DNA of 64,000 nt from Candidatus Kaiserbacteria bacterium. Its GTDB lineage: Bacteria > Patescibacteriota > Minisyncoccia > Phycocordibacterales > Phycocordibacteraceae. Location of the stretch: the NCBI GenBank assembly GCA_023264445.1, contig JAHFMN010000002.1, forward strand, positions 2,365 to 66,364, given 5' to 3'. The position numbers were made by a program, and so were the translations under genes. The notes below the pieces were generated by a model. That model saw only the letters and a program-made list of their open reading frames with translations, was not told where the DNA came from and searched no databases. Below, in pieces: positions 18,766 to 33,419 of the stretch (positions within the stretch are counted from its first letter, which is position 1; each line of letters starts with the position of its first letter).

Positions 18766-20205
18766 TCAAATCCGCGGAAAGAGGTTCTCGGGTTTTTTAT
18801 GTATACGCACTGCCTCACTTATTTGTGCACTCGTGCTGGGCATGAAGGACTCAAGTTCAATGGAGGTTGCGTGCAACTCTCTTACCAATTTCTTGATGAT
18901 TGAAAGAGCTTTCTCGCGAATAGCACCATCATCGGATTTAACACCCGCAAAAGGCTTCTCGAGTGCAATAAGAGCATCATCATGTCCGATACGTTCCCAA
19001 ATACCATCCATCGCACGACCAAACTCAAAAACTTCCACATGAGCGGCAACTGAAACATCCGGCTCGGTCTCTCCGGTTATTTCTACTGGACCTTCAAGAT
19101 AGGCCACAGCCATTTGCATCACGCGAGCGACGAGATTGCCAAGGCCGTTAGTAAGATTTGCTGTGTACCATTCATCGAGCCGTTCCCAGGTAACATCCGA
19201 ATCCTCCATCGGATTCACATGCCGCAAAAGCAAATAGCGCGTTGCGTCGGTACCGTATTTTTTCACCAAATCGTATGGATTGATGACATTGCCGAGCGAT
19301 TTACTCATCTTCTGCCCTCCCGAGTTTATGAAACCATGATAGAAGACTCGGTCGGTATTCTTGATGCCTGCAGATATAAGCATGGCTTGCCAGATAAGCG
19401 ACTGGAATCGTACTTGATCCTTCCCCGCTACTTGGAGCGTCGTGCCCTCTTCCCAAAATTTCTTGAAGGTTCCTTCAGAATCGTTTGGCCAACCAAGTGT
19501 CGAAATATAGCCTGTCAGAGCATCAAACCACACATACATCACTTGAGAATCATCCCCAGGAACCGGAATACCCCAAGAAAGGCGTGCTTTCTCGCGGGAG
19601 ATGCTGAAATCTTCGAGACCGCCTTTCACGAACGCGATAGCTTCTTCGCGGCGCCAGTCAGGAATGATGCTATCCGGGCGAGACAAATGTGTAAGGAGCT
19701 GATCGGCATATTTTGAAAAGCGGAAGAAATAATTCTCTTCGGTTATCTCCTGCAGTTCGAGAGTTGTATGGATACTGCAGTGGCCGTCCACTATCTCTTT
19801 CTCCGTCTTGTATGATTCGCACCCGACGCAATAGAGGCCCGTGTACGACTTTTTATAGATGTCGCCTGACGCGTCGCAACGGCGCCACATCTCTTGTGCG
19901 GCACTGACGTGTTCCGGACTCGAAGTACGGATGAAATGCAGAGCATCAAGATTGAGGGATTCTTTCAGCTTCTTGAATTCGTTTGCGTAGTGATCAACAT
20001 AGGTGTGCACCTCCTGCCCGGCTTTCTCTGCAGCTTCAAGGATCTTCTGCCCATGCTCATCAGTACCGGTATTGAAAAATACTTCATCCCCTGCGGCGCG
20101 CCAGGTGCGTGCGAGCACATCGGCCTGCACGATTTCAACTGCAAATCCGATATGCGGATCGGCATTCACATACGGCAGCGTAGTAGTGATGTAGCGCGCA
20201 CTCAT
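18766..20205 (-). CDS. metG: Methionyl-tRNA synthetase, short form of 479 aa that lacks the C-terminal tRNA-binding domain
   Basis: HIGF (HIGH variant), CVGC zinc knuckle, KMSKS. Confidence 0.95.
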   Translation of the reverse strand: MSARYITTTLPYVNADPHIGFAVEIVQADVLARTWRAAGDEVFFNTGTDEHGQKILEAAEKAGQEVHTYVDHYANEFKKLKESLNLDALHFIRTSSPEHVSAAQEMWRRCDASGDIYKKSYTGLYCVGCESYKTEKEIVDGHCSIHTTLELQEITEENYFFRFSKYADQLLTHLSRPDSIIPDWRREEAIAFVKGGLEDFSISREKARLSWGIPVPGDDSQVMYVWFDALTGYISTLGWPNDSEGTFKKFWEEGTTLQVAGKDQVRFQSLIWQAMLISAGIKNTDRVFYHGFINSGGQKMSKSLGNVINPYDLVKKYGTDATRYLLLRHVNPMEDSDVTWERLDEWYTANLTNGLGNLVARVMQMAVAYLEGPVEITGETEPDVSVAAHVEVFEFGRAMDGIWERIGHDDALIALEKPFAGVKSDDGAIREKALSIIKKLVRELHATSIELESFMPSTSAQISEAVRIHKKPENLFPRI

Positions 20206-20211
20206 GCGAAA

Positions 20212-21273
20212 TCAGGCCGACGCGTTCCCTGCGCGGCGTTTCCGTTTGTCAAAGTCGGTGATGAACTCAAGCAAGACTGCTGCTGCCGGCACCGAAAGCA
20301 GTACGCCGAGGAAACCGGCAAGCGTGTAGCCGGCGATGAGTGCCACGATGACCAGCAAGGGCGGTACGCCGACGATCTTCTTCACGATAAGCGGATAGAT
20401 GAGATTCGATTCGAACTGATTGACGACGACATAGAGGCCGGCGACAATCGCAGCGATTGCTACGCCGCCATCGGCAAAACCGACGATGACCGCCACGACG
20501 CCAGAGAGAAGCGACCCGAACACAGGAATGATCTCTATCATGGCGGTAAAGACTGCCAGGAGAAGCGCGTACGGGACGCCGATGATAAGAAGCCCAAGAT
20601 ACACGAGTATGCCGACAATGACCGAGAGCAATATCTGTCCCTGCATCCATAGCCCTATTTTCTTCTGGGTCCGCTTCCAGAGGTCGACTGAATATTCTTC
20701 ATACTCGAGCGGCATCACCAGGCGGAGGAAATCATCGACTCCAGTGTCCTGAAGCGCGAAGTAGAAAGAGAGAACGATGACAAGCAGAGATGAGAAAATG
20801 CCCCCGAAGAACGCGACAAAAAGATGTAGGATGCCGCTTGAACTCGCAGTGAAAACAGATTGGAAAGAAAGGAGCGTTTGTATGAAAGACTGTACCCCTT
20901 CCTGTCCGCCGATAAGAGCGGTCGCGTCAGCAAGATTTGGAAGAGAAGAAGCTGCGTTTATATCATCGAGATATTGCGGCATCAGGGAGAGAAAACCTGT
21001 CGCATCCGCAATGATGGGCGGGAAGAAGAAGTACAGAAGTGCGAAAATCGAACCGAATACCAGAACGTAGACCAGAAGCGCAGCGATGAAGCGTGGAATT
21101 CGCCGCCGAATAAAGAACACGATTCCCGGCTCGATCGCCGAGGCGATGACGATGGCGGTGATAACTAGAAGGGCGAGGTCGCGAAGGAGCCAGAGCACAT
21201 AGGCCCCTACAATGATGAAGAGCGTAGTGACGATAGTGCCCGGCGTGATGGAGACATGGATGTCCTTGCCCAT
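20212..21273 (-). CDS. AI-2E family transporter (PerM/UPF0118)
   Basis: 353 aa with about 8 TM segments and the characteristic AI-2E topology. Confidence 0.8.
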   Translation of the reverse strand: MGKDIHVSITPGTIVTTLFIIVGAYVLWLLRDLALLVITAIVIASAIEPGIVFFIRRRIPRFIAALLVYVLVFGSIFALLYFFFPPIIADATGFLSLMPQYLDDINAASSLPNLADATALIGGQEGVQSFIQTLLSFQSVFTASSSGILHLFVAFFGGIFSSLLVIVLSFYFALQDTGVDDFLRLVMPLEYEEYSVDLWKRTQKKIGLWMQGQILLSVIVGILVYLGLLIIGVPYALLLAVFTAMIEIIPVFGSLLSGVVAVIVGFADGGVAIAAIVAGLYVVVNQFESNLIYPLIVKKIVGVPPLLVIVALIAGYTLAGFLGVLLSVPAAAVLLEFITDFDKRKRRAGNASA

Positions 21274-21547
21274 ACGGGCATCCTAGCACATTCTCTCTTT
21301 GAGTTTGTGCGCGTTCCCGTGGCGTACGCATTGCCATCTGCGCCACTGCCCATCGAGAATTCTCCGGGCTGAATCTGATTCGGGACATCGAAGTCCTCTA
21401 GCAATGCGTACCAACTATTTCATTTTTGTTTGAGAAACATCCAAACGCTCTCTCTCAAGCCGTGGCCGAAGAGATTCTGGTATTGCATGTTTCTCGAATC
21501 TTCCGCATAAGCCGTGGCCGCTGCGCCCAAAGATTCGAGTGTAAGTA

Positions 21548-21591
21548 TACAAAAAGAAAATCGGCCCAAGGATACAAGTATCCAAGGGCCG
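21548..21591 (-). terminator. Intrinsic terminator for gene 21611..22270: hairpin CGGCCCAAGGATAC-AA-GTATCCAAGGGCCG, then a T-run on the minus strand
   Basis: Two 6 bp stems with a 2-nt internal loop, followed by ATTTTCTTTTTG. Confidence 0.5.
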
Positions 21592-21610
21592 AGTTCAAAG
21601 CGCCAAAGCG

Positions 21611-22270
21611 CTAGTTGCGAGGGAACACCCGATAACCGGCGCTCCAGTAGTAGTCGTCGCGCCCCCCCGCGTTCACGAACCAGTAGCCACTGTCGGCAAG
21701 CCAGAACACGTACACGACGAAGCCGGGCACGTAGAAGAGGTTGGCGTATCCGTTGTTCAGGAGTTCGCCATCCCTCCCTCCCCACTGCTTCTCGATCATC
21801 TGCGCGATGCGCGCACAGAGTTCGGACGGGTCCCACTCATACCCTTCGGGAAGTTCCGCCGTGATTTGGCTGTCCTTTGCGTTTTTGCGAAGGTCATAGG
21901 ACTTGCCGGTGCAGGCGTCGAGCTTCTCGACCGACTTCACGTTCGCAAGAATGCGTTCGTTGAATTCGCCCCAGATGTAGAGGCCGTCACGCGTCTGATA
22001 GAACGCGTGCGGGTCGTGAGGTTTGTCGAGCGCCGGATACTCCACCTGTCCATTCGCGAGAGCAAGTAAGGCGGGTTTCGGAACCATGGGAACATCGCCC
22101 AGTTTCGGGCAACCGGCTTTGAGGTAGGCCGCGAGATTGCGGCGCGCTTCGCGGTTATCCGTCACCGCCAAGAGTTCGGTGGTGACACCCTCCTTCGCCA
22201 TGACCCGTACAAATTTCGCGGTCGTGTCGAGGACGTTACTGATGGTTTCGAGGTGAGCGATGTTCGACAT
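21611..22270 (-). CDS. Hypothetical protein of 219 aa (start MSNIAHLETISNV). It is monocistronic with its own strong promoter, leader hairpin and terminator
   Basis: AGGAGG sits 7 nt upstream of the ATG; there is no recognisable family motif. Confidence 0.6.
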   Translation of the reverse strand: MSNIAHLETISNVLDTTAKFVRVMAKEGVTTELLAVTDNREARRNLAAYLKAGCPKLGDVPMVPKPALLALANGQVEYPALDKPHDPHAFYQTRDGLYIWGEFNERILANVKSVEKLDACTGKSYDLRKNAKDSQITAELPEGYEWDPSELCARIAQMIEKQWGGRDGELLNNGYANLFYVPGFVVYVFWLADSGYWFVNAGGRDDYYWSAGYRVFPRN

Positions 22271-22300
22271 CGTGTGCCTCCTAAGTAAAGAGCAACCCAT

Positions 22301-22368
22301 CCTGAATACGGGAATCCCGCACTCATTAGGTTGTTTATATTATATACTCAAATGACCTATCCTGTCAA
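22301..22368 (-). promoter_or_regulatory. Promoter plus conserved 5' leader module, copy A: -35 TTGACA (22363-22368), 18 nt spacer, -10 TATAAT (22339-22344). A leader hairpin UGAGUGCGGG-AUU-CCCGUAUUCA lies at 22303-22326
   Basis: Consensus hexamers; the 23-nt palindrome/hairpin starts about 10 nt after the predicted TSS; a near-identical module sits at 39501-39570. Confidence 0.55.
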
Positions 22369-22421
22369 GTCACCAAATGATCCTGTAGACACGGCTCAAA
22401 ATAGAACAAGGTTGAACCTTG

Positions 22422-23792
22422 TTAGGAGATGGAAGAGCGGATGCGGGTGGCGACTTCAGCAACAGTAAGGCGCTCTTGCTCGCCAGAATCACGATGGCGA
22501 AGGGTGACGGTGTCCGTGAGATTCGGCGTCTCGCCCAAGGTATCGAAGTCGATGGTGACGCAGAACGGCGTACCGATCTCGTCCTGGCGGCGATAGCGCT
22601 TGCCGATATTGCCATTATCGTCCCATGCGATAGCTGGGTGTATCTTCTGCAGCTCTTTACGCACCTCCTGCGCTTTCGCGACGAGCTCGGGTTTGTTTTT
22701 CAAAAGCGGCGAAACCATCGCTTTCACCGGTGCGATCTTCGGCGCAAGGGCGAGGTAGGAGCGCACTTCTCCGCCCATGTCATCTTCGCGATATGAGCTG
22801 GTAAGAATCGCAAGAATCGTGCGGTCCACGCCAAGAGACGGTTCGATAACGTGCGGAATAAATTTCTCCTTCGTCTCTTCATCAAGATAGGAAAGCGGAG
22901 TTCCAGAACCTTTTTCATGTGCCGAGAGGTCGAAGTCGGTGCGATAGGCGAGACCCCAGAGCTCTTTGCGGCCAAATGGGTATTCAAATTCAAAATCAAT
23001 CGTGCGTTTAGAGTAATGTGCGCGCTCTTCAGCAGGCACTTCAAGCTCATGGAGTGCGCTCGATGGTATTCCAACCGCTTCGGCAAACAGGTGCATCGCC
23101 TTGCGCCATTCCTCAAAGGCCTGCTCCCATGTATCGGGCTTTACGAAATACTCGACTTCCATCTGTTCGAGTTCACGCAGACGGAAGACGAAATCACGCG
23201 GAGCAATTTCGTTGCGGAACGCCTTCCCTATCTGCGCAATACCGAATGGAAGCTTCGGATGAAGCGAGTCAACAACATTTTTAAAGTTAGCGAAGATGCC
23301 GCCAGCCGTTTCCGGACGCAGATAGACCGTAGCCGACTCGTCCTCGGTGGCTCCCGCATGTGTCTTAAACATCATGTTAAATTGCCGAACTTCTCCAAGA
23401 GTGCCTTCTTTACCGCACGAAGGACAGACTTTATTTTCATTCACTATTTTTCCATTCTCATCTTTTTCATATTTAACTGGCACATGATCAGATCGGAAAC
23501 GACCTTTGCAATTATTGCACTCAACGAGAGGATCGGAAAATCCGGCGACATGGCCGGACGCTTCCCATACTTTCGGATTCATGAGTATTGCAGCATCAAC
23601 GCCATACATGTCGTCACGCGAATCACGGAACATCTGCAACCAGAGGCGTTCCACATTTTCCTTCAAGACAACACCGAGGGGCCCGTAGTCATAGGTGCCG
23701 GCGAGGCCGCCGTAAATCTCGGAGCCAGGGAAGACGAAGCCGCGGCGCTTACAGAGCGAGACAATTTTCTCCATCAACTGCTGATTAGCCAT
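22422..23792 (-). CDS. glyQS: Glycyl-tRNA synthetase (class II, alpha2 type)
   Basis: 456 aa; class II motifs; C-terminal anticodon-binding domain. Confidence 0.95.
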   Translation of the reverse strand: MANQQLMEKIVSLCKRRGFVFPGSEIYGGLAGTYDYGPLGVVLKENVERLWLQMFRDSRDDMYGVDAAILMNPKVWEASGHVAGFSDPLVECNNCKGRFRSDHVPVKYEKDENGKIVNENKVCPSCGKEGTLGEVRQFNMMFKTHAGATEDESATVYLRPETAGGIFANFKNVVDSLHPKLPFGIAQIGKAFRNEIAPRDFVFRLRELEQMEVEYFVKPDTWEQAFEEWRKAMHLFAEAVGIPSSALHELEVPAEERAHYSKRTIDFEFEYPFGRKELWGLAYRTDFDLSAHEKGSGTPLSYLDEETKEKFIPHVIEPSLGVDRTILAILTSSYREDDMGGEVRSYLALAPKIAPVKAMVSPLLKNKPELVAKAQEVRKELQKIHPAIAWDDNGNIGKRYRRQDEIGTPFCVTIDFDTLGETPNLTDTVTLRHRDSGEQERLTVAEVATRIRSSIS

Positions 23793-23885
23793 AGAGCGAT
23801 ATTACTGCCAAGCGAGCCGAGTGGCAAAGCATGTCCCCATGATTTGTCCGAGGCAAGCGCAGGAAGAAAGCTCGGTCATACGAGC

Positions 23886-25772
23886 TTATTGAACAGTAGC
23901 GTTAGTCGGGACATATCCTGGATCTCCCTTCGTTTCGGTCGTCACTGGATCGGCCGTCTCTGCTATCTGCACGCCAGCGAAGCGATCGTATCCTGAAAAA
24001 GTGACCGCACCGGTAAGTGGCGGCGCAGAACCTTTCTGCGAGGTGGACGGAGTGAATGAGACCTGGAAAAGCCCTTGTGTGCTCCCCGCTTGTGCGAGGT
24101 CGCCGATATCCCATGAGACAGAACGAGAGGTTCCATCATACGAGAAAGAGCCGCTACCGCCTGTGAGACCGGTATAGGAAACGTAGCCGGGCAATACCGT
24201 CGAGACCCTTCCCCCGGCCACCGCGCTTCCTTTGTTTTGAGCAGTCAGGACAATACTATATGTCGTCGCTTGATTGGCTTTAGGAGGAATAGGGCCGCTG
24301 TTTCCTATAGCTCCCGAACTATGCAGCGCTGCTGCTGAAAGCATGACTGAGGTCGCGACCTTCACGGTCTTGGCTGCAGAAGCATTCACCAATTCCGGCA
24401 CATTACTCTGGCCCACGCGAGTACCAGAGACAGAGATAGTGAAGGTGATTGATGGTGTGGTGGGAAGCATACTCGCTGGAAGGGTTGCGAAAGAAAACGA
24501 ACCGAAACCAGAAGCACCAGGCGCAAGCGAGGCAAGAGAGGAATCGGTGTCCCTGCTGAACACGACGGTATGATCGGAGGAGCGGTAGAAACCATTTGTC
24601 GTCTGTATGCTGTCATAATCAACCGCCGAACCAGAGAGTGCGATAGAGATTGTCGCATTTGTCACACTCGTTGAGAGCGTATTCGTATAGGAAAGGCTGA
24701 CGTTCTGAGGGCTCCCAGCAGTGACGACGGTGTTCGTGCCTGTATCCCCGTTAAGGGCAAGCGTCGTATTAATAAAAGGCGCTCTGATGGTAACCGTCGC
24801 ATCTTGTGTCATATAGGAGACGACGGGCGTCTGGTTCGTCGGCGTATCCGCGGTCCCGACTGTAAAGTGGAAAACGCGCTGCTCTTTATCTTGTCCCAAG
24901 AGCGTTCCAACAAGCGTCACTTCCTTGCTCGCACCGGGCGCGATAGTGCCGAGCAGAAAACTGGAATTATTCAGCGGGCGTGACGACGAGGTGACCGAAA
25001 AGCCAAATGGGAGCGTGCTTGCGAGAACGACGTTCTCGAGCGGTACTGTTGCATTAGAACGGACGGTGAGTGTAAAAGCGAGCGGTTTGCCGGAAATCGT
25101 TTCAGAGAGCGTCTCGACCGAAAGCGAAAGCGGCGTAGAAGAGATCGTCAGTGGATAGGAAGTTTTCTTTACAAAACCCGCATTGGAGCCGGTCGTACCG
25201 TAGGAAAATGTGACTGGCAGAGTGAGCGTTTGTCCGGCTCCGCCGAATATGATTGCCTTCAACGAACGAGTTATCGTCGCACCGCTTGCGAGCATGCCAA
25301 GATTCTCGGTGTAGCGCGGGTAGGTCTGCGAGATATCATCTGCACTGCGCGTGCCGCTTGGGAATTCAATCCCAATCGTCGCATTTTCAAGAGCAACCGG
25401 ATTCTTATTCGTTATGGTGAGTGATAGGGGGACGGTATCTCCTCCTGCGATTGTCGTCGGGCCTTGTATATCGATGGTGATCTTGTCTACCGAGACGGTG
25501 TTGCCGCCGGCAAAGAAGAAATAGCCGGCGGCAACAAGTGAAACGAGAAAGAACAGGAATGCAATGGTGAAAAATATACCGGCGAAATGAACGTGTCGCT
25601 CCCCATTTCGCGAGAATTGCTGAAATGATTCTCGCCACGTATGAGGTAGAAGGCGTGGGCCAGACTGTGCAAGTGGAGGATTTCCTCCCGATGAGGGGGC
25701 AACGGGCTCGTAGAGACGCTTTCGCGCCCGTTCAAGCGAGCCAGTATCATCTTCAGGAAGCGGCGGCATCAC
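23886..25772 (-). CDS. Large membrane-anchored surface protein of 628 aa with repeated beta-sandwich (CARDB/Ig-like) domains
   Basis: Single TM helix IFFTIAFLFFLVSLVAAGYFFF followed by a 550-aa Thr/Ser-rich ectodomain. Confidence 0.7.
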   Translation of the reverse strand: MMPPLPEDDTGSLERARKRLYEPVAPSSGGNPPLAQSGPRLLPHTWRESFQQFSRNGERHVHFAGIFFTIAFLFFLVSLVAAGYFFFAGGNTVSVDKITIDIQGPTTIAGGDTVPLSLTITNKNPVALENATIGIEFPSGTRSADDISQTYPRYTENLGMLASGATITRSLKAIIFGGAGQTLTLPVTFSYGTTGSNAGFVKKTSYPLTISSTPLSLSVETLSETISGKPLAFTLTVRSNATVPLENVVLASTLPFGFSVTSSSRPLNNSSFLLGTIAPGASKEVTLVGTLLGQDKEQRVFHFTVGTADTPTNQTPVVSYMTQDATVTIRAPFINTTLALNGDTGTNTVVTAGSPQNVSLSYTNTLSTSVTNATISIALSGSAVDYDSIQTTNGFYRSSDHTVVFSRDTDSSLASLAPGASGFGSFSFATLPASMLPTTPSITFTISVSGTRVGQSNVPELVNASAAKTVKVATSVMLSAAALHSSGAIGNSGPIPPKANQATTYSIVLTAQNKGSAVAGGRVSTVLPGYVSYTGLTGGSGSFSYDGTSRSVSWDIGDLAQAGSTQGLFQVSFTPSTSQKGSAPPLTGAVTFSGYDRFAGVQIAETADPVTTETKGDPGYVPTNATVQ

Positions 25773-25790
25773 TCATTAGTATACAAGAAT

Positions 25791-26360
25791 TTAAAGGCCG
25801 GAAGTGGCAATGCCGTGATTGATGCGCGTAATGTATGCCGTGCGATCTTCTGCGACCGCAGCAAGTAGTGGAGGCGTGAACGCCGATGGTTCTCCTGGTA
25901 TGCCACCTACATCGAGCCCCAGTGCAGCAAGCGTGCGGAGTGCGGCGAGCATTTCAACGGCCTCGTGCTGCTCCTCAGGATGCTCCGAAAGCGCGGAAAA
26001 AAAGCCACTCATGATGGGAAAGAGTGTCGTGTCATGGGCTTCTCCGGCAACAAGGCGCAGCAAGAGTCCCGACACGCGCGCCGCCCGCTCTCGCGGCGGC
26101 GCGCTCTGCATGCGCTTGAACCAATTTTCTTCAAGCATGGCGCCGGCAAGCCGCCAGCCCTCCTTCCCGCGAACAAGCACGAGAGAACTTTCAGCAAAGG
26201 TAGTGAGAGCATGGGCGAGCTTCGCCCCGGAAGCCCGGAGGCCCTGCGCCCGAGCGCGCACGAGACCGAGCTCGGGCGTGAGCACCATGACAAATGCGTT
26301 CGCTTCTCCCAAAGGAGAACGGGAGAGCACGATACCGCGCGTCTCGTATTTATGGCGCAT
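25791..26360 (-). CDS. recO: DNA repair protein RecO
   Basis: N-terminal OB fold [28 protein letters not shown]. Confidence 0.75.
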
Positions 26361-29300
26361 TGCGAATGAGATTGAAGCGTACCGGACCGGTTGAGAGGGT
26401 CGCCGCATGCTTCCCTTCCGGAGCTATCTCCGTGCGCACCGTATCTCTGGGAGAGAATCCTTCGGCTTTGCGCGCATCCGCGACCGCGCGCGCCATCTCG
26501 CGCTCGTCTCCCTCCTTTATAAGCTCTGGCGTGAGAGCCGTGTCGAGCACAAGCTCTTTGCCTGCGATCACTTTTTTCACATTCATCTCTTCAGCGAGAA
26601 TGCCTGCCAGCTCGGTTGGCAGTTGCCCTGGAACCGTGAGCGAAGCGAGCGGTTGGCGCACCTTGATACCGGCCTTCTGCCGCAATTGGAGCGCTTCTGA
26701 TGCGAGCGCACGAACTTTCTTCATCTCTGCGAGCAGAGCTTCGTCTTTCCCTTTGCCGAACCAGCGCCGTTTTCGCTCCGGCCATGATGCAAGATGCACG
26801 CTCTCTGGAGCAGAAGCATCCTTTACCCTCGCGTACACATCCTCTGCAAGAAATGGCGCGAACGGAGCGAGAAGAAGCGCCGATGTATGAAGCGTGTCGC
26901 GGAGAGTCTCGAGAGCTGCTGCATCGCCTTCGCGCACGCGGTCGCGAATGCGCCGCACATACCATTGTGAAAGATCTTCAGTAAGCCCCGCAATCATACG
27001 CGTCGCCTCAAAGGGACGGTACCCGTCCATACTTTCGGTCATAACCGAGACAGCTTCCTGCACTCGCGCCCGCATCCATGTATCAATAACCGCCGGCTGC
27101 TTTTGCACAGGCGGAACATCTTTGAACAACTCATAGAACTTCGCGCTATTCTCGAGCCAAGAGAGCACTTTCGCCGCCTCCTTCACCGTTTTCTCGCCAT
27201 AATTCTTTGAGTCGCCCGGCTGGGTCACGCTATACATCCAGAACCGGAGCGTATCGACGCCCCACTTCTCCATCTCCACCCATGGGTCAACCACATTCCC
27301 TTTTGATTTGCTCATCTTCTGCCCTTCGGCATCGAGGAGGTGTCCGAGCGAAATCACATTTCTGAAAGAAGCGCCGCGGCCTGCAAGCGTTCCTACCGCG
27401 AGCAGCGTATAAAACCAGCCGCGCGTCTGGTCGATGGCCTCGCTGATGAAATCAGCCGGGTACGCGATCTTCTTCAGAAAGGCGCTCAGCGATTCGTTCC
27501 CGCGCTCGCGCGCCGCTTGTGCAAACGGCATTCCGCCGGAGTCAAACCATACGTCCATTACTTCCTTCACTCGGCGCAGTTTGGTCCCCTTTTCTGAAAC
27601 GAGCACCACATCATCGATATAGGGCCGATGCAGATCAAGCTCATAGTCCTCATTGTGTGGAAGAGGGAGGAAGTTAAGAGCGCGCTCCTCGGCAGGAGCA
27701 AGAGCGTCCCGTTCGATATGCCCGTGGCGCACGACCGCTTCGGGTATCGTCTCGCCAAGCGCGACTGACTGAAGCATGAAAGCGGGGGTCTCATGCGTCA
27801 CGAAGAGAATCTTCTCGCCCTGATACTGCTCCTCGCACTCGTACAGGAGCGCGCCGACACGGCGCTTGACCTCTACCCAGCTCTCACCTCCTTGTGGCGC
27901 AGACAAGCCTTTCGGCTGCGACGCTAAAAACCATTCATGATACGCGCGTATCGGTCCTTGATTGAAGATGCCGAGCCCAAGCTCTCGCAGGCGCGCATCA
28001 GCGGCTATGCTGTCGGACAGGCCACATTCTTGCGCGATAATCTCCGCCGTCCGGGTCGTCCGCCGCAAGGGCGAGTGGATGATGCGCGTGATGCCGAGAT
28101 GCTTAAGGCGCTTCGCAGTCGCTCGTGCATCATCCTCCCCTTTCTGGGTAAGATTTCCCGAAATCGAATCGTCGTCATTGAGTATCCTGCTTACGTTATT
28201 CTCCGTCTCTCCATGCCGCATCACGAAATACGCATTGCCGGATTTTTTCGTATGCTTTTTCAGGTCATCTATCGAATCAATAACGAGCTGTTCGCTTCCA
28301 TCAGTATTGCGCCAGATAGGTAGCGGCGTACCCCAATAGCGCTCGCGGCTTATCGCCCAGTCTTTCGCATTTGCGAGCCATTCGCCCATGCGCCCCTCGC
28401 GGATGTATTCCGGCTCCCAATGAATCTTCTTATTTTCAGAAACGAGCTTCACGCGCAGGTCGCTCATGCGGATGTACCACGAATCGCGCGCATAATAGAT
28501 GAGCCGCGTCTTGCACCGCCAGCAGAAGGGATAGGTGTGCGTATAGGATTCTTTCTTGAAAAGCAGATCGCGCGCCTGCAGGTCTTTCAGTATCTCAACC
28601 GACGTCTCCTCTTCAACGACAGACCTTCCGGCAAGAAAACCAGTTCCATCAATAAACTTCCCTTCAGGATTTACTAAATGCACTTTCGGCAGGCCAATAC
28701 TGTTCCCAAGTTCGAAATCTTCTTGGCCGTACATCATCGCGGTGTGTACGATGCCCGTACCATCTTCGGTCGTGACGAAATCCGCCGCATATACCTGAAA
28801 TGCTTTCTCAAACTTTGCCTTCTCGTTCTCTGACGCGAGATTCTTTGCAAAATCGTAGAGCGGCTTATATTTCTTGCCAACTAAATCTTTTCCTTTAACT
28901 TCTCTCTCGACACTAAAAGAAATCCCGGCATCGGAGAATCGTTCAAGAGCTGATTTTGCCAGAAGATACACACCAGAGTCAGCTTCATAATGGCCCGCAC
29001 CCGCCGCTTGTATTTGAGTCTTAAAAATTTTTGCTTTTACATAATCAATGTCCTTCCCCACTGCGAGTGCGATGTTGCCAGGAAGCGTCCATGGCGTCGT
29101 CGTCCACGCGAGCAGATAGGTACCCGGCTCATCTACGAGCTCAAACTTCGCAGTAATGGTGAGATCTTTGATGTCTTGGTATCCCTGCGCAAGCTCGTGC
29201 GAAGAGAGTGCCGTCCCGCAACGCGGACACCATGGCACGACCTTGTAATCCTTATAGAGCCGGCTGTCCTTTGCCGTCTGGGCAAAGAGGTGCCAGAGGA

Positions 29301-29769
29301 CTTCCATGTAGGAACTGTCAAAGGTGAAATACGCCTTAGTCTCATCGACCCAGTAGCCGATGCGCTTGGTAAACTTCGCCCATAAATCAATGTATGCAAA
29401 AACGCTCTCGCGGCACTTCTTATTGAAAGCGGCTATGCCGTATTTCTCGATGTCGGGCTTTCCTTTGAAACCAAGCTGTTTTTCGACTTCAAGCTCGACT
29501 GGAAGCCCGTGCGTGTCCCACCCCGCGCGGCGATTGACCCGATACCCGCGCATGGTCTTGTAGCGCGGAATGGCATCTTTAAATGCGCGTGCCTCAAGGT
29601 GGTGGATGCCCGGCTTTCCATTGGCCGTCGGCGGTCCTTCATAAAAGACGAATTCGCCTTTGGGGGACTTTTTCGTGAGTGATTTCTCAAAGATGCGCTC
29701 GCGCTCCCAAAACGCCAGAATCGCTTCTTCGCGCTTCGCCGCTTCTGACTTCTCTGGAACATCAGCCAT
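26350..29769 (-). CDS. ileS: Isoleucyl-tRNA synthetase of 1139 aa carrying an inserted histidine-phosphatase (PGAM-like) domain of about 200 aa between the WGTPLPIW and DVWFDSG segments
   Basis: HIGH-like [10 protein letters not shown]1 editing domain, KMSKS. The insert carries RHGETENN and LFVTHE motifs. Start taken at [12 protein letters not shown]. Confidence 0.93.
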
Positions 29770-29857
29770 ATCTCTCGTATCGTAGCGTTTACCGGGCAAA
29801 AATGGAAACGGCGGCCCAGGAGAGAATCCCTGTGACCGCCGTTGTGGCGTTGTGTCG

Positions 29858-30163
29858 CTATGCGACCCGGAGCGCCGGATGGAATCGCCGATATCGCTCA
29901 CGGTGCGAACGGGCGCGGATCGCCGTTCGACGGGCGATTGCCCGCTCGTATAGCCCCCTCGCATACTTCAGGACATAGTCCGGAATCTTGCGGAGATTCA
30001 CGACGACTTTCCGGACGATGTTCTCACCCCGCTGCATACGCAGAGCATTCTCGAAGCTGGTTGCTTCCTCGAACAATTCCTTGATTGTCCACGAGCGAAA
30101 GCGTGCAGCCCGATAGATGATCTCGATGTGAGAGGATGTCCTGCGACGGTTCTTATTTGCCAT
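29858..30163 (-). CDS. Small basic hypothetical protein of 101 aa with an Arg-rich C-terminal tail
   Basis: GGAGGA sits 3-4 nt upstream of the ATG; it lies between argS and ileS. Confidence 0.45.
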
Positions 30164-30327
30164 TACTCCTCCATAGCAGTCGCGACCGACGACATGTACG
30201 GTCTGCGAAAGAATCTAGCGCACTCTCAGCTTACCCGCAACCTACTGCCAAGCGAGCCGAGCGACAAATGAAGTCCCTACTTTATTTGTCCGAGGCAAGT
30301 ACAGAGAGAAAGCTTTGTCTTCAAAGC

Positions 30328-31974
30328 TTACATCCTTTCAGGCGTGGGGACACCGAGAAGCGTGAGACCGTTCGTCATGGTCTGCACGAACGCGCGGGCG
30401 ACAATCAGTTTATGCGCCTCGTGATCGCCGCCGATGATGCGTTCCTTCGCATAAAAAGAATTCCACTGTCCTGCAAGCTCGGTCAGATAGGTCACGAGGA
30501 GATTCGGGGTAAGCTCCCGTGCGGCGCGTGCGGCTACTTCAGGGAAATGCAACATGACTCGTTCTATATCGTACGGTTCGGCAGGTATATCACCCTTTCC
30601 CTTTTCTCCTGCTTGAGCGAGCACAGAGGCCGCCCGCACAAGCGCGTACTGGAGGTACGGTCCAGAATCACCCTCAAGCGAAAGTGACTTCTCTTCGTCA
30701 AAGACGATATCCGATCCCGGGGCCTGGCGCAGAATCATGTACTTGATCGCACCGATTGCCACCTGCTCGGCGATAAGCGGATCTGGATTCTTCTCACTGG
30801 CCCTTGTGATGATGTCTCGGATAAATTCGGCGGCGGCAATGACATTCCCTTCGCGCGAAGACATCTTCCCCGAGGCAAGCTTTAGAAAACCGGTAGAGAC
30901 ATGAACCGTTTTCTCGGCAAGAACTGGCGCGATGTCGGAAAGCGCTGCGAGTACGGTCCTGAAACGTCCTGTCTGTTCATTCCCAGTAATAACGACTGCC
31001 TGGTCTGACGGCCATCGCTCCTCCTTCAGGAATGCAAGTCCTATATCTTTTGCTTCATACGTCGGCGTATCATGCGAGGTGATGAATACCATCGTATGCA
31101 CGCCTTTCTTCTCTCCGTTGTAGATGATGGCACCATCGCTTTTTTCAAATATCCCTTTTTGCAACCCATCCATCACGATGCGCACGCCGGCTTCAGTCGT
31201 ATCGCTGTCAAAGAATTCAAAATCGAAATGCGTCCCGAGCAATTTCCAGATGCGGCGGAACTCTTCCATAGAAACGTCTCGTCCTTTCCGCCACAATTCC
31301 ATGAGTGCGTGGTCAGTACCCGCATACATCGCCTGATTGAGCGCGTCTATCTCTTCCTTCGCGTTCGGATCAGTCTCATAGGCGCGCGAACCTTCGGTAT
31401 ATGCCGCACCGATTTCTTGAGCGGTCGTCGGATCATCAATGCCGTTTTTTCGCAGTCCCCAGAGCGCCTTCGCGACGTTCGGACCGATATCTCCGCCGAA
31501 GGTATCGCGCGCCACCGTTGCACCGGAATTCTGTATGAGACGTGAGAGTGCCTCGCCTACGACCGTACCGACAAGATGACCGATATGCATCTCCTTGAAT
31601 GCATTCGGATTTGAATATTCGACGAGGATGCGTTTCGCGGTATTCCCGCCACCTTTCCCCCAGTCCGGTCCCTTCGCATCGGCCTCGGCAACCATAAAAT
31701 TGACCGCATCGCGCGCAAGCAGAATATTTATGAAGCCCGGTCCGGCGACTTCTATTCTTGAAACATGATCGCGAAGAGATTCTCGGAGTGCGTGCGCAAG
31801 CTCGTCAGCGAGCTCACGCGGATTCTTACCAAGTGATTTTGCTGCTGCAAGCGCGGCATTCGTCGCATAATCTCCATGTGCTATATCCCCGGGCCGTTCA
31901 ACGACGAACGCGACGGTATCGGCACCCATACGCACCAAAATATCCTTGATGGACTGCCGGATTTGCTCCTCCAT
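30328..31974 (-). CDS. argS: Arginyl-tRNA synthetase
   Basis: HIGH-like PNAFKEMHIGH and KMSS motifs; start taken at MEEQIRQSIKD. Confidence 0.93.
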   Translation of the reverse strand: MEEQIRQSIKDILVRMGADTVAFVVERPGDIAHGDYATNAALAAAKSLGKNPRELADELAHALRESLRDHVSRIEVAGPGFINILLARDAVNFMVAEADAKGPDWGKGGGNTAKRILVEYSNPNAFKEMHIGHLVGTVVGEALSRLIQNSGATVARDTFGGDIGPNVAKALWGLRKNGIDDPTTAQEIGAAYTEGSRAYETDPNAKEEIDALNQAMYAGTDHALMELWRKGRDVSMEEFRRIWKLLGTHFDFEFFDSDTTEAGVRIVMDGLQKGIFEKSDGAIIYNGEKKGVHTMVFITSHDTPTYEAKDIGLAFLKEERWPSDQAVVITGNEQTGRFRTVLAALSDIAPVLAEKTVHVSTGFLKLASGKMSSREGNVIAAAEFIRDIITRASEKNPDPLIAEQVAIGAIKYMILRQAPGSDIVFDEEKSLSLEGDSGPYLQYALVRAASVLAQAGEKGKGDIPAEPYDIERVMLHFPEVAARAARELTPNLLVTYLTELAGQWNSFYAKERIIGGDHEAHKLIVARAFVQTMTNGLTLLGVPTPERM

Positions 31975-32135
31975 ACGCGCGAGTATACCAATAAAATGAG
32001 GCCTGCCGGAGAGCGGTGGCAGGCCTCGGGAGCCAAGAAGGAGAAAGAAAAGACCCGGTACTTCAGGCATTGGGATTGGAATTCCTGGCCGGTTTCGGGT
32101 TTTTGGTTCCCTCTCCTTCGCGACTATGCCGAATG

Positions 32136-33419
32136 CTATATCTCCTTGAGAGATTCTGCAATAAATGACTCGGGGATAGGGTGTGCAAGCGCAAGTTTTT
32201 TTACCTCTTGCTTCGCATGTTCAACAGTTGCATCATCGCGCTTTGTGAGCACATCTACCATGAGTTCAGCCACTTGCGCAGACTCGGTTTCGCGAAATCC
32301 ACGCGTCGTCATCGCCGGCGTGCCGAAGCGGATGCCGGACGGGTCCATCGGTTTGCGTGTATCGTCTGCAATCGTATTTTTATTGAGCGTGATGCTCGCA
32401 CGATCAAGAAGTGTCTCTGCTTCGCCGCCGGAAATGCCGAATGATGCCCACGCATCAAGCAGGATGAGGTGATTGTCGGAACCGCCAGTGATCATGCGCG
32501 CGCCGTGCTTTTTAAATATCTGCTCCATCGCCTTTGTGTTCGCGAGAATCTGTTTTGCATACCGTTCAAAAGATGGATGCAATGCCTCTTTGAAAGCAAC
32601 TGCCTTTGCGGCTATCTGGTGCATATGCGGGCCGCCCTGTAGCCCCGGGAATACCGCCTTATCTATCTTCTTCGCGATTTCCTCGTCTTCGCGCGTGAGG
32701 ATCATGCCGCCGCGGGGGCCTCGGAGCGTCTTGTGGGTCGTGGTCGTCATGATGTCAAAGCCGTACTCAAACGGATTCTTCGCGGCCTTCCCCGCGATGA
32801 GCCCGGCAATGTGCGCAATATCCATCACGGCCAGTGCTCCGACTTCGCGTGCGATATCAACGAATTTTACATAGTCTAACTCGCGCGGATATGCCGAGAA
32901 ACCAGCGAGTACTATTTTCGGCTTCACTTCCTTCGCGACGCGACGCATGTCGTCGTAATCTATTTCGCCGGTCTCGATGTCTTTCATCTTGTACCGTACG
33001 AAATTAAAAATCTTCGTGAGATAGGTGACCGGATGCCCGTGCGTCAGATGCCCGCCATGCGAGAGATCCATGCCAAGCACCGTATCGCCCGGCTGAAGAA
33101 GGGCGAAATACATCGCGATGTTTGCATTCGCGCCACCAAGCGGCTGGACGTTCGCATAGGAGGCACCGAAGAGCTTTTTTGCTCGCTCAATCGCGAGCAT
33201 TTCTACAGCGTCGGTAAATTCTTGCCCGCCGTAGTATCGCTTTCCCGGATACCCTTCCGAGTATTTGTTCGTGAGCGATGACGCCATTGCCTCCTTCACG
33301 GCGCGCGAGACGTAATTTTCCGATGGGATGAGTTCCAATCCCTCCGCCTGCCGCTTCTCCTCCCCCGCAAGCGCCGCAAAGATTTCCGGGTCCTCTTTTT
33401 CGATAAAGGGAAATTCCAT
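32136..33419 (-). CDS. glyA: Serine hydroxymethyltransferase
   Basis: 427 aa; PLP site TTTTHKTLRGPRGG. Confidence 0.97.
   Translation of the reverse strand: MEFPFIEKEDPEIFAALAGEEKRQAEGLELIPSENYVSRAVKEAMASSLTNKYSEGYPGKRYYGGQEFTDAVEMLAIERAKKLFGASYANVQPLGGANANIAMYFALLQPGDTVLGMDLSHGGHLTHGHPVTYLTKIFNFVRYKMKDIETGEIDYDDMRRVAKEVKPKIVLAGFSAYPRELDYVKFVDIAREVGALAVMDIAHIAGLIAGKAAKNPFEYGFDIMTTTTHKTLRGPRGGMILTREDEEIAKKIDKAVFPGLQGGPHMHQIAAKAVAFKEALHPSFERYAKQILANTKAMEQIFKKHGARMITGGSDNHLILLDAWASFGISGGEAETLLDRASITLNKNTIADDTRKPMDPSGIRFGTPAMTTRGFRETESAQVAELMVDVLTKRDDATVEHAKQEVKKLALAHPIPESFIAESLKEI

What the first reader, a model, noticed from the sequence alone, without database searches (positions are those of the whole stretch)
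26350..29769. Isoleucyl-tRNA synthetase with an inserted histidine-phosphatase (phosphoglycerate-mutase-like) domain
Between the conserved IleRS segments WGTPLPIW and DVWFDSG the ORF contains about 200 extra residues, encoded at roughly 27657-28257. They carry the branch-1 histidine phosphatase signature RHGETENN, a [11 protein letters not shown] loop and a second catalytic-His motif LFVTHE. Both IleRS flanks are intact and in frame, so this is a domain insertion and not an assembly artefact or an intein. I do not know of such a fusion in aaRS.
Basis: partly seen in the sequence, partly recalled or inferred. Interest (0 to 1): 0.7.

Follow-up and report, generated by a model that had tools for sequence, protein, structure and literature searches.

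The report
Isoleucyl-tRNA synthetase carrying a nested phosphatase
The enzyme that loads isoleucine onto its tRNA in this tiny uncultured (CPR/Patescibacteria) bacterium has a complete, apparently active histidine phosphatase built into one of its surface loops, a design shared by over a hundred related species (and by their valine enzyme) that I could not find described in the literature.

Summary
The minus-strand CDS 26350-29769 (1139 aa) is a bona fide type-2 isoleucyl-tRNA synthetase: TIGR00392 scores 804 bits against a cutoff of 621. KMSKS and the editing motifs are intact, and the signature motif is the non-canonical GIHH. Residues 509-701 (27667-28245) are a full branch-1 histidine phosphatase domain (Pfam His_Phos_1, E=5e-30). 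It is nested in the CP2 zinc-knuckle hairpin, where the P. megaterium IleRS2 structure has a single residue. It is neither an artefact nor an intein. At least 114 GTDB species and more than 115 protein clusters share the architecture in one reading frame. The catalytic residues R-H-N-R-E-H are almost invariant in about 260-280 copies. The domain resembles the PhoE/GpmB/CobC phosphatases and is not a true phosphoglycerate mutase. It evolves much faster than the synthetase body (about 39% versus 77% identity). It was cleanly lost in two syntenic orthologues, so aminoacylation does not need it. Other IleRSs carry two or three copies at different sites, and ValRSs carry up to four. Near relatives are fused to ATP sulfurylase and QueC. 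My best reading is a bifunctional protein with an autonomous small-molecule phosphatase tethered to adenylate-forming enzymes. The substrate is unknown, and PPi or nucleotide phosphates are only a speculative lead. I found no literature on it.

The parts
26350..29769 (-). ileS coding sequence: 1139 aa plus stop, a type-2 isoleucyl-tRNA synthetase with a nested phosphatase.
   Evidence: ORF. TIGR00392 ileS scores 804 bits against a cutoff of 621.4. The best solved relatives are P. megaterium IleRS2 8C8W (700 bits) and T. thermophilus 1ILE. Foldseek gives TM 0.75 to 8C8W. An exact match exists as P0121.
28246..29769 (-). IleRS N-terminal part, aa 1-508. It holds the first half of the HUP catalytic core, CP1 with the editing domain, and the first half of the CP2 hairpin, ending '...[12 protein letters not shown]'.
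   Evidence: Pfam tRNA-synt_1 covers aa 17-510. It aligns to PmIleRS2 residues 5-478. Coordinates were verified.
29599..29610 (-). Class I signature motif in its non-canonical form G54-I-H-H57 (GXHH in place of HXGH).
   Evidence: Sequence confirmed. It is the consensus in homologues. The motif is described in PMC10485003.
29086..29103 (-). CP1 editing-domain threonine-rich motif TTTPWT, aa 223-228.
   Evidence: WTTTPWT is present in 74 of 80 related loci.
27667..28245 (-). Nested histidine phosphatase domain (His_Phos_1), aa 509-701.
   Evidence: Pfam PF00300 E=5e-30. A PDB profile search gives PhoE 1EBB/1H2E as the best match at E=6e-32. The boundaries come from the insert-less orthologues P0229 and P0232 and from the PmIleRS2 alignment. 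AlphaFold2 pLDDT is 85-97 across aa 511-700.
28210..28218 (-). R518-H519-G520: the catalytic arginine and the nucleophilic histidine of the phosphatase.
   Evidence: Among homologues, R is kept in 255 of 255 and H in 254 of 255.
27793..27795 (-). H659, the second catalytic histidine (motif FVTHE). The other core residues are N525 (28195-28197), R570 (28060-28062), E596 (27982-27984) and R637 (27859-27861).
   Evidence: Conservation among homologues: H 282 of 282, R570 262 of 262, E596 as 261 E plus 7 D, N525 236 of 255, R637 279 of 281.
26353..27666 (-). IleRS C-terminal part, aa 702-1139. It holds the second half of CP2 ([20 protein letters not shown]), the second half of the HUP core ([20 protein letters not shown]), the anticodon-binding domain and the type-2 C-terminal domains.
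   Evidence: Pfam Anticodon_1 covers aa 896-1041, and DUF5915 gives a weak hit. It aligns to PmIleRS2 residues 480-846.
27304..27318 (-). KMSKS loop, aa 818-822.
   Evidence: Present in 65 of 80 loci, including the KLSKS variant; the remaining loci are mostly truncated.

Best explanation
**What it is (shown).** The gene encodes the housekeeping type-2 isoleucyl-tRNA synthetase of a Patescibacteria (Parcubacteria/Paceibacteria-type) bacterium. A complete histidine phosphatase domain of about 193 residues is nested at the tip of the CP2 zinc-knuckle hairpin, between WGTPLPIW and DLHRPYID...DVWFDSG.

**What I infer about how it works.**
- The protein is bifunctional. The IleRS part activates isoleucine, edits and charges tRNA-Ile in the usual way.
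- The nested domain independently removes a terminal phosphoryl group through a phospho-His519 intermediate. R518, N525, R570 and H659 hold the phosphate, and E596 acts as the acid.
- The phosphatase is not part of the aminoacylation chemistry. It can be lost cleanly, it evolves about 2.5 times faster than the host, and only its phosphate-binding core is conserved.
- It is an autonomous small-molecule phosphatase of the PhoE/GpmB/CobC kind, kept physically attached to adenylate-forming enzymes.

**The mechanism I commit to (speculative, probability about 0.25-0.3).** The domain clears a small anionic phospho-compound made or used at the synthetase. My leading candidate is pyrophosphate or a nucleotide-type phosphate, which would pull amino-acid activation forward.

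**The close second (about 0.3).** It is a general broad-specificity phosphatase that is merely co-expressed with the synthetase.
For: **Identity**
- ileS equivalog scores 804 bits against a cutoff of 621; His_Phos_1 scores 105 bits against 21.7.
- The IleRS halves align to PmIleRS2 5-478 and 480-846. Foldseek gives TM 0.75 to 8C8W.
- In the AlphaFold2 model the insert and both junctions have pLDDT 85-97.

**Real and ancient**
Host and insert share one frame in 80 of 80 loci.
- More than 115 full-length clusters of 1086-1152 aa share the architecture.

**Likely active**
- R, H, R and H are conserved in 254-282 of 255-282 copies. The acid residue is 261 E plus 7 D.
- Every copy in the multi-copy proteins examined keeps the R, H, R and H residues; the acid, Asn and a further Arg are each replaced in at most one copy.

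**Phosphatase, not mutase**
- The best solved relative is the broad-specificity phosphatase PhoE at E=6e-32, followed by iPSP1 and CobC.
- All dPGM, CobC, PspA and SixA models fall far below their cutoffs.

**Not needed for charging**
- The insert-less orthologues P0229 and P0232 have the same gene order (argS, small ORF, ileS, recO, a 626-aa gene, glyS). They are 80-81% identical in the synthetase body and nest inside the insert-bearing clade.

**Weak surface constraint**
- Identity to the window protein averages 77% in the body and 39% in the insert.
- The cap region is variable and is deleted in some copies.

**Argues for linkage to adenylate-forming enzymes**
- Other IleRSs carry the domain at other sites: A' (after the second Cys pair of the zinc knuckle), B (after DxWFESG) and C (after KMSKS). 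They have two or three copies.
- ValRSs carry it mostly at the homologous site, with up to four copies.
- The embedded lineages are old and distinct from each other.
- Near relatives are fused to ATP sulfurylase and QueC. By textbook enzymology these are also ATP alpha-beta-cleaving, PPi-releasing enzymes.

**Biochemical precedent**
- Yeast branch-1 members remove phosphate from ATP, DNA ends and 3-PGA (PMC2737285).
Against: - There is no biochemical evidence of any kind, and the substrate is unassigned. I know of no branch-1 histidine phosphatase shown to be an inorganic pyrophosphatase.
- The ATP-sulfurylase and QueC fusions are two small clusters (three and two members). In the sulfurylase fusion the acid residue is replaced by Gln.
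- Clean loss in close relatives fits a hitch-hiker as well as a helper.
- The insertion sites are scattered over the enzyme. That argues against a precise geometric relation to the active site.
- I could not examine the position of the phosphatase pocket relative to the synthetic site, because the structure tool returns no coordinates.
- I could not test whether insert-bearing genomes lack ppa/hppA or a stand-alone PhoE-like gene.
Confidence: 0.55

Rival explanations
1. Uncoupled hitch-hiker. The domain is an ordinary broad-specificity or metabolic phosphatase that landed in a permissive surface loop of an essential, constitutively expressed gene. It is retained only because the fusion guarantees expression in a streamlined genome. 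It has no functional relation to aminoacylation.
For: - It is lost cleanly in syntenic orthologues.
- It evolves fast, at 39-44% identity against 75-77% for the body.
- Only the generic catalytic core is conserved.
- Stand-alone proteins of 170-215 aa are as similar to the window insert (31-39%) as embedded copies from distant IleRSs are.
- No conserved partner gene sits nearby.
Against: This does not easily explain several findings. The same domain type sits at four or more IleRS sites and at several ValRS sites. Up to four active copies occur per protein. The only other fusion partners among the best 150 hits are ATP sulfurylase and QueC.
Confidence: 0.3
2. tRNA-end healing. The phosphatase removes a 3'- (or 5'-) phosphate from damaged tRNA so that the synthetase can charge it.
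For: - Its hosts are tRNA-binding enzymes.
- Yeast branch-1 members can dephosphorylate DNA ends.
- It is closely tethered to the catalytic domain.
Against: - The embedded domains are strongly acidic. Mean net charge is -7.5, 89% are negative, and the window copy is -10.
- No conserved basic surface or cap residues appear.
- The relatives fused to ATP sulfurylase and QueC do not handle tRNA.
- A general repair function would not be expected on only one or two synthetases.
Confidence: 0.06
3. Regulatory or protein phosphatase. The domain dephosphorylates the synthetase itself, for instance countering a HipA-like toxin kinase that targets aaRS. Alternatively it acts as a phospho-His switch that senses a metabolite.
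For: From general knowledge: branch-1 members include protein phosphatases (SixA, PGAM5, Sts-1), and HipA/HipT kinases inactivate GltX and TrpS. Fast surface evolution could reflect an arms race.
Against: - No kinase or toxin gene lies in the conserved neighbourhood of the 80 loci.
- The SixA model scores 34.7 bits against a cutoff of 74.5.
- Nothing points to a phosphorylated site on IleRS.
- Multiple copies at scattered sites are hard to rationalise under this idea.
Confidence: 0.08
4. It is the cell's glycolytic cofactor-dependent phosphoglycerate mutase, parked inside IleRS.
For: It belongs to the same superfamily. The best NCBIfam phosphatase-type hits carry 'phosphoglycerate mutase' names, GpmB and dPGM_arch.
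Against: - Scores are 87 and 82 bits against cutoffs of 261 and 225. The classical GpmA-type models score 16-22 bits against 316-320.
- The profile spans about 170 positions where dPGM chains need about 203, so the mutase-specific segment is missing.
- After the catalytic Glu the sequence reads LGLGIF. From memory, mutases have the substrate-binding R-x-Y there.
- The closest solved protein, PhoE, is a phosphatase and not a mutase.
Confidence: 0.04
5. Artefact, intein or dead spacer. The insert is a chimeric assembly, a self-splicing element or an inactive structural filler.
For: None beyond the unusual length of the protein.
Against: - The same protein is found on two independent assemblies.
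- Hundreds of homologues from many projects keep it in frame.
- There is no Hint or endonuclease domain.
- The catalytic residues are essentially invariant.
Confidence: 0.02

Closest known systems
Type-2 (eukaryote-like) bacterial IleRS, e.g. Priestia megaterium IleRS2 (PDB 8C8U/8C8V/8C8W) and Thermus thermophilus IleRS (1ILE)
   Same: - The domain order matches throughout: HUP core, CP1 with the editing domain, CP2, anticodon-binding domain and type-2 C-terminal domains.
- Scores are 700 and 677 bits, and Foldseek TM is 0.75-0.85 normalised to the target.
- KMSKS and the editing motifs are present.
- The GXHH signature is the natural variant that PMC10485003 links to mupirocin hyper-resistance.
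   Different: - About 193-197 extra residues sit where PmIleRS2 has one residue (478-480), inside the CP2 zinc finger.
- The four zinc-knuckle cysteines that flank this point in PmIleRS2, and in 30 of 80 related loci, are lost here and in 45 of 80 loci.
PhoE of Geobacillus stearothermophilus (PDB 1EBB/1H2E), a broad-specificity branch-1 histidine phosphatase; also GpmB, CobC and iPSP1
   Same: It is the best solved relative of the insert, at E=6e-32 over about 160 residues. It has the same catalytic residue set (R, H, N, R, E, H) and the same compact size without the dPGM-specific segment.
   Different: PhoE and its kin are free-standing proteins of about 200 aa. Here the domain is nested inside another enzyme. 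It reaches no curated equivalog cutoff, so its substrate cannot be transferred by homology.
NCBIfam NF040702 'isoleucine--tRNA ligase, N-acetyltransferase domain-containing' (ileS_w_GNAT)
   Same: It is a precedent for an IleRS that carries an extra enzymatic domain. I know it only from the model's name.
   Different: The extra domain is different (GNAT, not a phosphatase). The window protein scores 286 bits against a cutoff of 1999, so it is not a member. I did not determine where the GNAT sits.
Bifunctional RNase H / acid phosphatase (NF005567, PRK07238; Rv2228c type)
   Same: A CobC/PhoE-like histidine phosphatase is fused to a nucleic-acid enzyme. The insert matches the phosphatase half of the model at 72-76 bits.
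   Different: That fusion is end-to-end and not a nested insertion. The partner is different, and the score is below the cutoff of 326.

Membership tests
Isoleucine--tRNA ligase (TIGR00392 equivalog) | Whole-protein score above the curated cutoff. | tested here: met
   804 bits against 621.4, in two stretches split by the insert.
Isoleucine--tRNA ligase (TIGR00392 equivalog) | Class I signature motifs (HIGH-type and KMSKS). | tested here: met
   KMSKS is at aa 818-822. The HIGH position reads GIHH, the non-canonical G/AXHH form documented for functional IleRS2.
Isoleucine--tRNA ligase (TIGR00392 equivalog) | CP1 editing domain with the threonine-rich motif. | tested here: met
   WTTTPWT is at aa 222-228 and GTGIVHTA is present. 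The region has high pLDDT.
Isoleucine--tRNA ligase (TIGR00392 equivalog) | Aminoacylation of tRNA-Ile. | not testable with these tools
   Needs an enzyme assay. Synteny with the insert-less orthologue suggests that this is the housekeeping copy.
Type-2 IleRS (IleRS2) | Type-2 C-terminal organisation without the C-terminal zinc-binding domain of IleRS1, and closest to IleRS2 structures. | tested here: met
   The best PDB hits are PmIleRS2 and TtIleRS at 700 and 677 bits, against 261-276 for IleRS1. DUF5915 gives a weak hit at 25.7 against 27 here and clear hits in homologues. Foldseek matches 8C8W over the full length.
Histidine phosphatase superfamily, branch 1 (Pfam PF00300) | Score above the gathering threshold. 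| tested here: met
   105-109 bits against 21.7.
Histidine phosphatase superfamily, branch 1 (Pfam PF00300) | RHG motif with the nucleophilic His, plus the second Arg, the acid Glu and the second His. | tested here: met
   R518, H519, R570, E596 and H659 are all present and nearly invariant in homologues.
Histidine phosphatase superfamily, branch 1 (Pfam PF00300) | The alpha/beta fold of the family. | tested here: met
   A profile search hits 96 solved family members, the best at E=6e-32. AlphaFold2 gives alternating strands and helices at pLDDT 85-97. No domain-only structural superposition was run.
Histidine phosphatase superfamily, branch 1 (Pfam PF00300) | Phosphatase activity through a phospho-histidine intermediate. 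| not testable with these tools
   Needs an enzyme assay and an H519A control.
Cofactor-dependent phosphoglycerate mutase (dPGM) | Reaches a curated dPGM equivalog cutoff and has the mutase-specific extra segment. | tested here: not met
   GpmB 87 against 261, dPGM_arch 82 against 225, PRK01295 22 against 316, PRK01112 16 against 320. About 170 profile positions align to about 203 residues of dPGM chains.
Alpha-ribazole phosphatase CobC / phosphoserine phosphatase PspA / phosphohistidine phosphatase SixA | Reaches the curated equivalog cutoff. | tested here: not met
   TIGR03162 64-68 against 162.9, PspA 50-53 against 350, SixA 35-37 against 74.5.
Intein | Hint splicing domain (with or without a homing endonuclease) in the insert. 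| tested here: not met
   Pfam finds only His_Phos_1 in the insert. The insert is bounded by ...HTK|KSGN and ...NFL|PLP.
Mupirocin-resistance IleRS MupA/MupB | Reaches the curated exception-model cutoff. | tested here: not met
   659-687 bits against 1900. It is related as an IleRS2 but is not these proteins.

The most novel reading that the evidence does not exclude
Histidine phosphatase modules have been recruited repeatedly into class Ia synthetases because they serve adenylate-forming enzymes. The recruitment covers four or more sites in IleRS and several sites in ValRS, with up to four active copies per protein, mostly in CPR bacteria. One possible role is a phospho-histidine-based pyrophosphatase or nucleotide phosphatase that pulls amino-acid activation forward in cells that keep PPi high. 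If so, this would be a new functional class of aaRS accessory domain and a new activity for branch-1 histidine phosphatases.
Probability: 0.22. Interest if true: 0.85.

Novelty: new variant of a known kind. Interest (0 to 1): 0.62.

Why it matters
Aminoacyl-tRNA synthetases are among the most studied enzymes. Domains added to them have repeatedly revealed new biology, such as editing, signalling and antibiotic resistance. From my own knowledge, such additions are known mainly from eukaryotes.

Here a catalytically intact phosphatase is nested inside the catalytic domain of a bacterial IleRS. The trait has been kept across a whole class-level lineage of CPR bacteria. It has been multiplied and re-inserted at other sites, and it also occurs in ValRS.

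If the phosphatase acts on a product or ligand of the synthetase, it would show a new way of driving or regulating amino-acid activation in organisms with minimal metabolism. If it does not, it is still a clear natural example of tolerated domain nesting in an essential enzyme. The CP2 hairpin would then be a ready-made permissive site for engineering. The insert also explains why NCBI labels these essential genes only 'class I tRNA ligase family protein'.

Tried and rejected
- **Assembly chimera.** Rejected. The same protein sits on two assemblies, and hundreds of homologues keep it in frame.
- **Intein.** Rejected, as there is no Hint domain.
- **True dPGM, CobC, PspA or SixA.** Rejected as family assignments, because all fall below their cutoffs.
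- **tRNA-binding role.** Made unlikely by the acidic charge of the domain.
- **Conserved partner gene.** I looked for a kinase, toxin or transporter across 80 loci. Only the housekeeping synteny appeared: SHMT, ArgRS, IleRS, RecO, a 630-aa protein and GlyRS.
- **Second phosphatase in the window.** A search for a second His_Phos gene, or for a ValRS, in the 64-kb window found none.
- **Recent tandem duplication in multi-copy proteins.** Rejected. Copies within one protein are 22-31% identical, while same-site copies in different proteins are 32-56% identical.
- **Literature.** Six searches pairing aaRS or IleRS terms with phosphatase, phosphoglycerate-mutase or CPR terms found nothing relevant. 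A search for Parcubacteria plus pyrophosphatase gave no usable information on PPase in these genomes. The original PhoE paper (PMC2253200) is not held.
- **Taxonomy of the two-domain IleRS P0261.** I could not name it. The cluster look-ups returned no names.
- **Domain geometry.** I could not obtain inter-domain geometry from the AlphaFold2 model, because only summary statistics are returned.
- **NJ tree.** The tree that places the insert-less proteins has no bootstrap support values.


Full report
**1. The observation**

A single open reading frame runs on the minus strand from 29964 to 26350. Homologues all begin at the methionine encoded at 29769 ('[15 protein letters not shown]'). The coding sequence is therefore 26350-29769 and encodes 1139 residues.

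The IleRS motifs WGTPLPIW (aa 479-486) and DVWFDSG (aa 739-745) are 252 residues apart.

- Pfam splits tRNA-synt_1 into two stretches and places His_Phos_1 (PF00300) at aa 515-675. The score is E=5e-30, or 105 bits against a gathering score of 21.7. Anticodon_1 lies at aa 896-1041.
- NCBIfam's ileS equivalog scores 804 bits against a cutoff of 621.
- Base composition shows no break at the junctions.

**2. Exact boundaries and location in the IleRS fold**

- Against solved structures the best match is Priestia megaterium IleRS2 (8C8W, 700 bits), followed by Thermus thermophilus IleRS (1ILE, 677 bits). IleRS1 structures score only 261-276 bits.
- Query residues 5-507 align to PmIleRS2 5-478, and query residues 705-1066 align to 480-846. 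About 197 residues therefore replace one residue.
- In the nomenclature of Brkic et al. (PMC10485003), the HUP catalytic core of PmIleRS2 is residues 40-168 and 513-632, with CP1, the editing domain and CP2 in between. The insertion point lies in CP2.
- More precisely, it sits between the two cysteine pairs of a zinc knuckle. PmIleRS2 reads 'WECEGCQ...ELQKHA | HYVDDSIELHKPYVDDVQLTCPVCSG'. Most distant homologues keep these cysteines on either side of the insert.
- The window protein has lost all four cysteines, as have 45 of 80 related loci.
- AlphaFold2 on a 72-sequence alignment gives mean pLDDT 84.9 and pTM 0.75. Blocks covering aa 501-730, including both junctions, score 85-97. The nested domain is therefore predicted to be folded and firmly attached.
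- Foldseek places the whole model on PmIleRS2, with TM 0.75 normalised to the target.

**3. It is real and widespread**

- The identical 1139-aa protein occurs on two independently assembled contigs of 212.8 kb (ENA) and 242.6 kb (NCBI).
- A search with the full protein returned more than 115 clusters of 1086-1152 aa at 65-76% identity. All carry PF00133 plus PF00300. Their names are 'class I tRNA ligase family protein' or 'isoleucyl-tRNA synthetase'. Their sources are Patescibacteria, Paceibacterota, Kaiserbacteria, Parcubacteria and Minisyncoccia.
- A search with the insert plus its flanks returned dozens more at 38-54% identity, from Uhr-, Niyogi-, Nealson-, Sung- and Colwellbacteria.
- In all 80 loci kept, RHG and the IleRS motif DLHRPYID lie in the same frame. 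Complete reading frames are 1088-1339 codons from stop to stop. The one exception is a shorter frame of 752 codons in L033.

**4. The phosphatase looks active and is a phosphatase, not a mutase**

Across about 290 embedded copies the catalytic set is almost invariant:

| Residue in the window protein | Conservation in homologues |
|---|---|
| R518 | 255 of 255 |
| H519 | 254 of 255 |
| N525 | 236 of 255 |
| R570 | 262 of 262 |
| E596 | 261 E plus 7 D |
| R637 | 279 of 281 |
| H659 | 282 of 282 |

- A profile of the insert finds the broad-specificity phosphatase PhoE (1EBB/1H2E) as its best solved relative, at E=6e-32. Next come phosphoserine phosphatase iPSP1 and CobC. True dPGMs are weaker, and they need about 30 more residues over the same profile span.
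- Every curated equivalog (GpmB, archaeal dPGM, CobC, PspA, SixA, GpmA types) falls far below its cutoff.
- Outside the phosphate-binding core nothing is strongly conserved. The cap region is variable and is deleted in some copies.
- The embedded domains are acidic, with mean net charge -7.5. The window copy is -10.

**5. Relation to the host enzyme**

- Among the close homologues, two proteins lack the insert: P0229 (934 aa) and P0232 (940 aa). They are 80-81% identical to the window IleRS in the shared body.
- P0229 lies in the same gene order as the window gene: ArgRS, a small ORF, IleRS, RecO, a 626-aa protein and GlyRS.
- In a neighbour-joining tree of the body columns, both insert-less proteins nest inside the insert-bearing clade next to the window protein. 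The tree has no bootstrap support.
- The simplest reading is a clean secondary loss, so aminoacylation does not need the domain.
- The insert evolves far faster than the body. Identity to the window protein is 39% against 77%. Over all pairs it is 44% against 75.5%.
- The host is otherwise a complete IleRS. KMSKS, the editing motif WTTTPWT and the first zinc site are all present.
- Its signature motif is GIHH. This is the natural G/AXHH variant that Brkic et al. showed to be catalytically competent in IleRS2 and to raise the mupirocin Ki by up to a thousand-fold.

**6. Beyond the finding: several sites, several copies, and ValRS**

I searched 1.84 billion representative proteins with the insert alone. 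There were 464 hits at E<=1e-10. Most of the best 150 are IleRS. The rest are stand-alone proteins of 170-215 aa at 31-39% identity and a few other architectures.

*IleRS with other sites and more copies.*
- P0261 is 1419 aa and scores 816 bits on the ileS model. Its cluster has six members on contigs of up to 1.06 Mb, and the gene is intact on locus L083. Its CP2 knuckle is uninterrupted. It carries one phosphatase after DCWFESGSMPYAS (site B) and another after KMSKS, just before the anticodon-binding helix (site C).
- P0270 has copies at site A' (after the second cysteine pair) and at site B, plus the start of one at site C.
- P0328 and P0379 (the latter from Candidatus Peribacteria) have copies at sites A and A'.

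*ValRS.*
- P0241 is a valyl-tRNA synthetase with four phosphatase domains.
- About 30 further ValRS fragments carry the domain. They come from Gracilibacteria, Doudnabacteria, Colwellbacteria and other Patescibacteria. In most the domain sits immediately upstream of D..DTWFSS, the site homologous to the IleRS one.

*What the copies have in common.*
- All copies examined keep the R, H, R and H residues. The acid, the Asn and a further Arg are each replaced in at most one copy.
- Copies at different sites of one protein are only 22-31% identical. Same-site copies in different proteins are 32-56% identical.
- IleRS-embedded and ValRS-embedded domains form separate groups. These are old, separate lineages and not recent duplications.

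*Other fusion partners.* The only other partners seen are ATP sulfurylase (P0342) and QueC (P0347).

**7. Mechanism**

*Shown:*
- The protein is a complete IleRS2 with a nested, complete histidine phosphatase domain.
- The catalytic residues of that domain are under strong purifying selection.
- The host does not need the domain.

*Inferred:*
- The protein is bifunctional, and the phosphatase works autonomously through phospho-His519.
- The substrate is small. Only the phosphoryl-binding core is conserved, and the surface is acidic.
- The repeated capture by IleRS and ValRS, the multiple copies, and the fusions of relatives to ATP sulfurylase and QueC suggest that attachment to these enzymes is itself selected. 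By textbook enzymology, all four partners cleave ATP between the alpha and beta phosphates and release pyrophosphate.

*Speculative:* My leading specific idea is local hydrolysis of PPi or of a nucleotide-type phosphate. Yeast branch-1 enzymes remove phosphate from ATP, DNA ends and 3-PGA (PMC2737285), so cleavage of a terminal phosphoanhydride has precedent. I rate this idea at only about 0.25-0.3.

The uncoupled hitch-hiker explanation is about equally likely. tRNA-end repair, a protein-phosphatase or regulatory role, a glycolytic mutase and an inactive spacer are each less likely, for the reasons given under the rival explanations.

**8. Comparison with what is known, and novelty**

- The host is a member of IleRS2.
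- The insert is a member of His_Phos_1 branch 1, closest to PhoE/GpmB/CobC, but it belongs to no curated functional subfamily.
- Precedents for extra catalytic domains exist. NCBIfam has an 'ileS with GNAT domain' model, and there is a bifunctional RNase H/acid phosphatase.
- I found no description of a histidine phosphatase in any aaRS.
- The 2026 preprint that annotated the domain architectures of 96,219 IleRSs contains none of the words 'phosphatase', 'Patescibacteria' or 'CPR' in its main text.
- The architecture is visible in public databases, through precomputed Pfam hits and generic NCBI names. It is therefore an unreported variant of known parts and not a new kind of system. I rate it 'new variant of a known kind', with interest 0.62.

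Noticed in passing
window 29599-29610 (aa 54-57): The class I signature motif is the non-canonical GIHH (G/AXHH instead of HXGH). Brkic et al. 2023 (PMC10485003) link this variant to mupirocin hyper-resistance in IleRS2. In 35 of the 36 related loci where my pattern found the motif, it is also G/AXHH.
   Followed up: partly
window ~28290-28311 and ~27580-27600 (aa ~487-495 and ~724-730): The four cysteines of the CP2 zinc knuckle that flank the insertion point are absent. They are present in PmIleRS2 and in 30 of 80 related loci. They are missing here, in 45 of 80 loci, and in the insert-less orthologues.
   Followed up: partly
P0261 / L083:6001-10260; P0270; P0328; P0379: Other IleRSs carry two or three histidine phosphatase domains at different sites: after the second Cys pair, after DxWFESG, and after KMSKS. 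Every copy keeps the R, H, R and H residues, and nearly all keep the acid and Asn as well. P0261 (1419 aa) is seen in six assemblies, on contigs of up to 1.06 Mb.
   Followed up: yes
P0241, P0388-P0411 (not in the window): Valyl-tRNA synthetases of Gracilibacteria, Doudnabacteria, Colwellbacteria and other Patescibacteria also carry nested His_Phos_1 domains. Most sit at the homologous CP zinc-knuckle site. P0241 has four copies.
   Followed up: partly
P0342 and P0347 (not in the window): Near relatives of the insert are fused to ATP sulfurylase (with PUA_2; the acid Glu is replaced by Gln) and to QueC. Both are also ATP-dependent, PPi-releasing enzymes.
   Followed up: partly
L082:10001-12805 (VFSW01003942.1, GCA_009712145.1): This is a syntenic orthologue of the window gene that lacks the phosphatase precisely (934 aa, with 'HLK-PGAG-LPKNE' at the junction). 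It is about 81% identical in the synthetase body.
   Followed up: yes
window ~18766-33419: A conserved cluster rich in aaRS genes: SHMT, ArgRS, a small ORF, IleRS, RecO, a 628-aa CLIPPER-like protein, GlyRS, then MetRS. ArgRS, RecO, the ~630-aa protein and GlyRS are kept next to ileS in 45-58 of 80 species, and SHMT in 30; MetRS conservation was not tallied.
   Followed up: partly
window 29858-30163 (-): A 101-aa arginine-rich ORF lies between argS and ileS and has no Pfam hit. A 97-aa counterpart sits at the same place in L082.
   Followed up: no
window ~28984-29043 (aa ~243-262): The window protein has an extra segment of about 15-20 residues in the CP1/editing region ('[21 protein letters not shown]'). 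Its closest relatives lack it. pLDDT is below 50 at aa 255-260.
   Followed up: no
window 26350-26408: The 3' end of ileS overlaps the start of the downstream recO gene. The overlap is 11 nt in the gene calls for L081 and L082, which suggests translational coupling.
   Followed up: no
L083 (ENA ERZ25074195 ctg43262): The contig carrying the two-phosphatase IleRS P0261 also encodes adenylosuccinate synthase, DAHP synthase and a 1123-aa SLH-domain protein. This is unexpected for a minimal CPR genome. Its taxon could not be named.
   Followed up: partly
model m9ca72391db19, aa 37-87: AlphaFold2 gives pLDDT below 50 for the highly conserved HIGH-motif region of the catalytic core, while the rest is confident. 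This is probably an effect of the shallow alignment rich in fragments.
   Followed up: no
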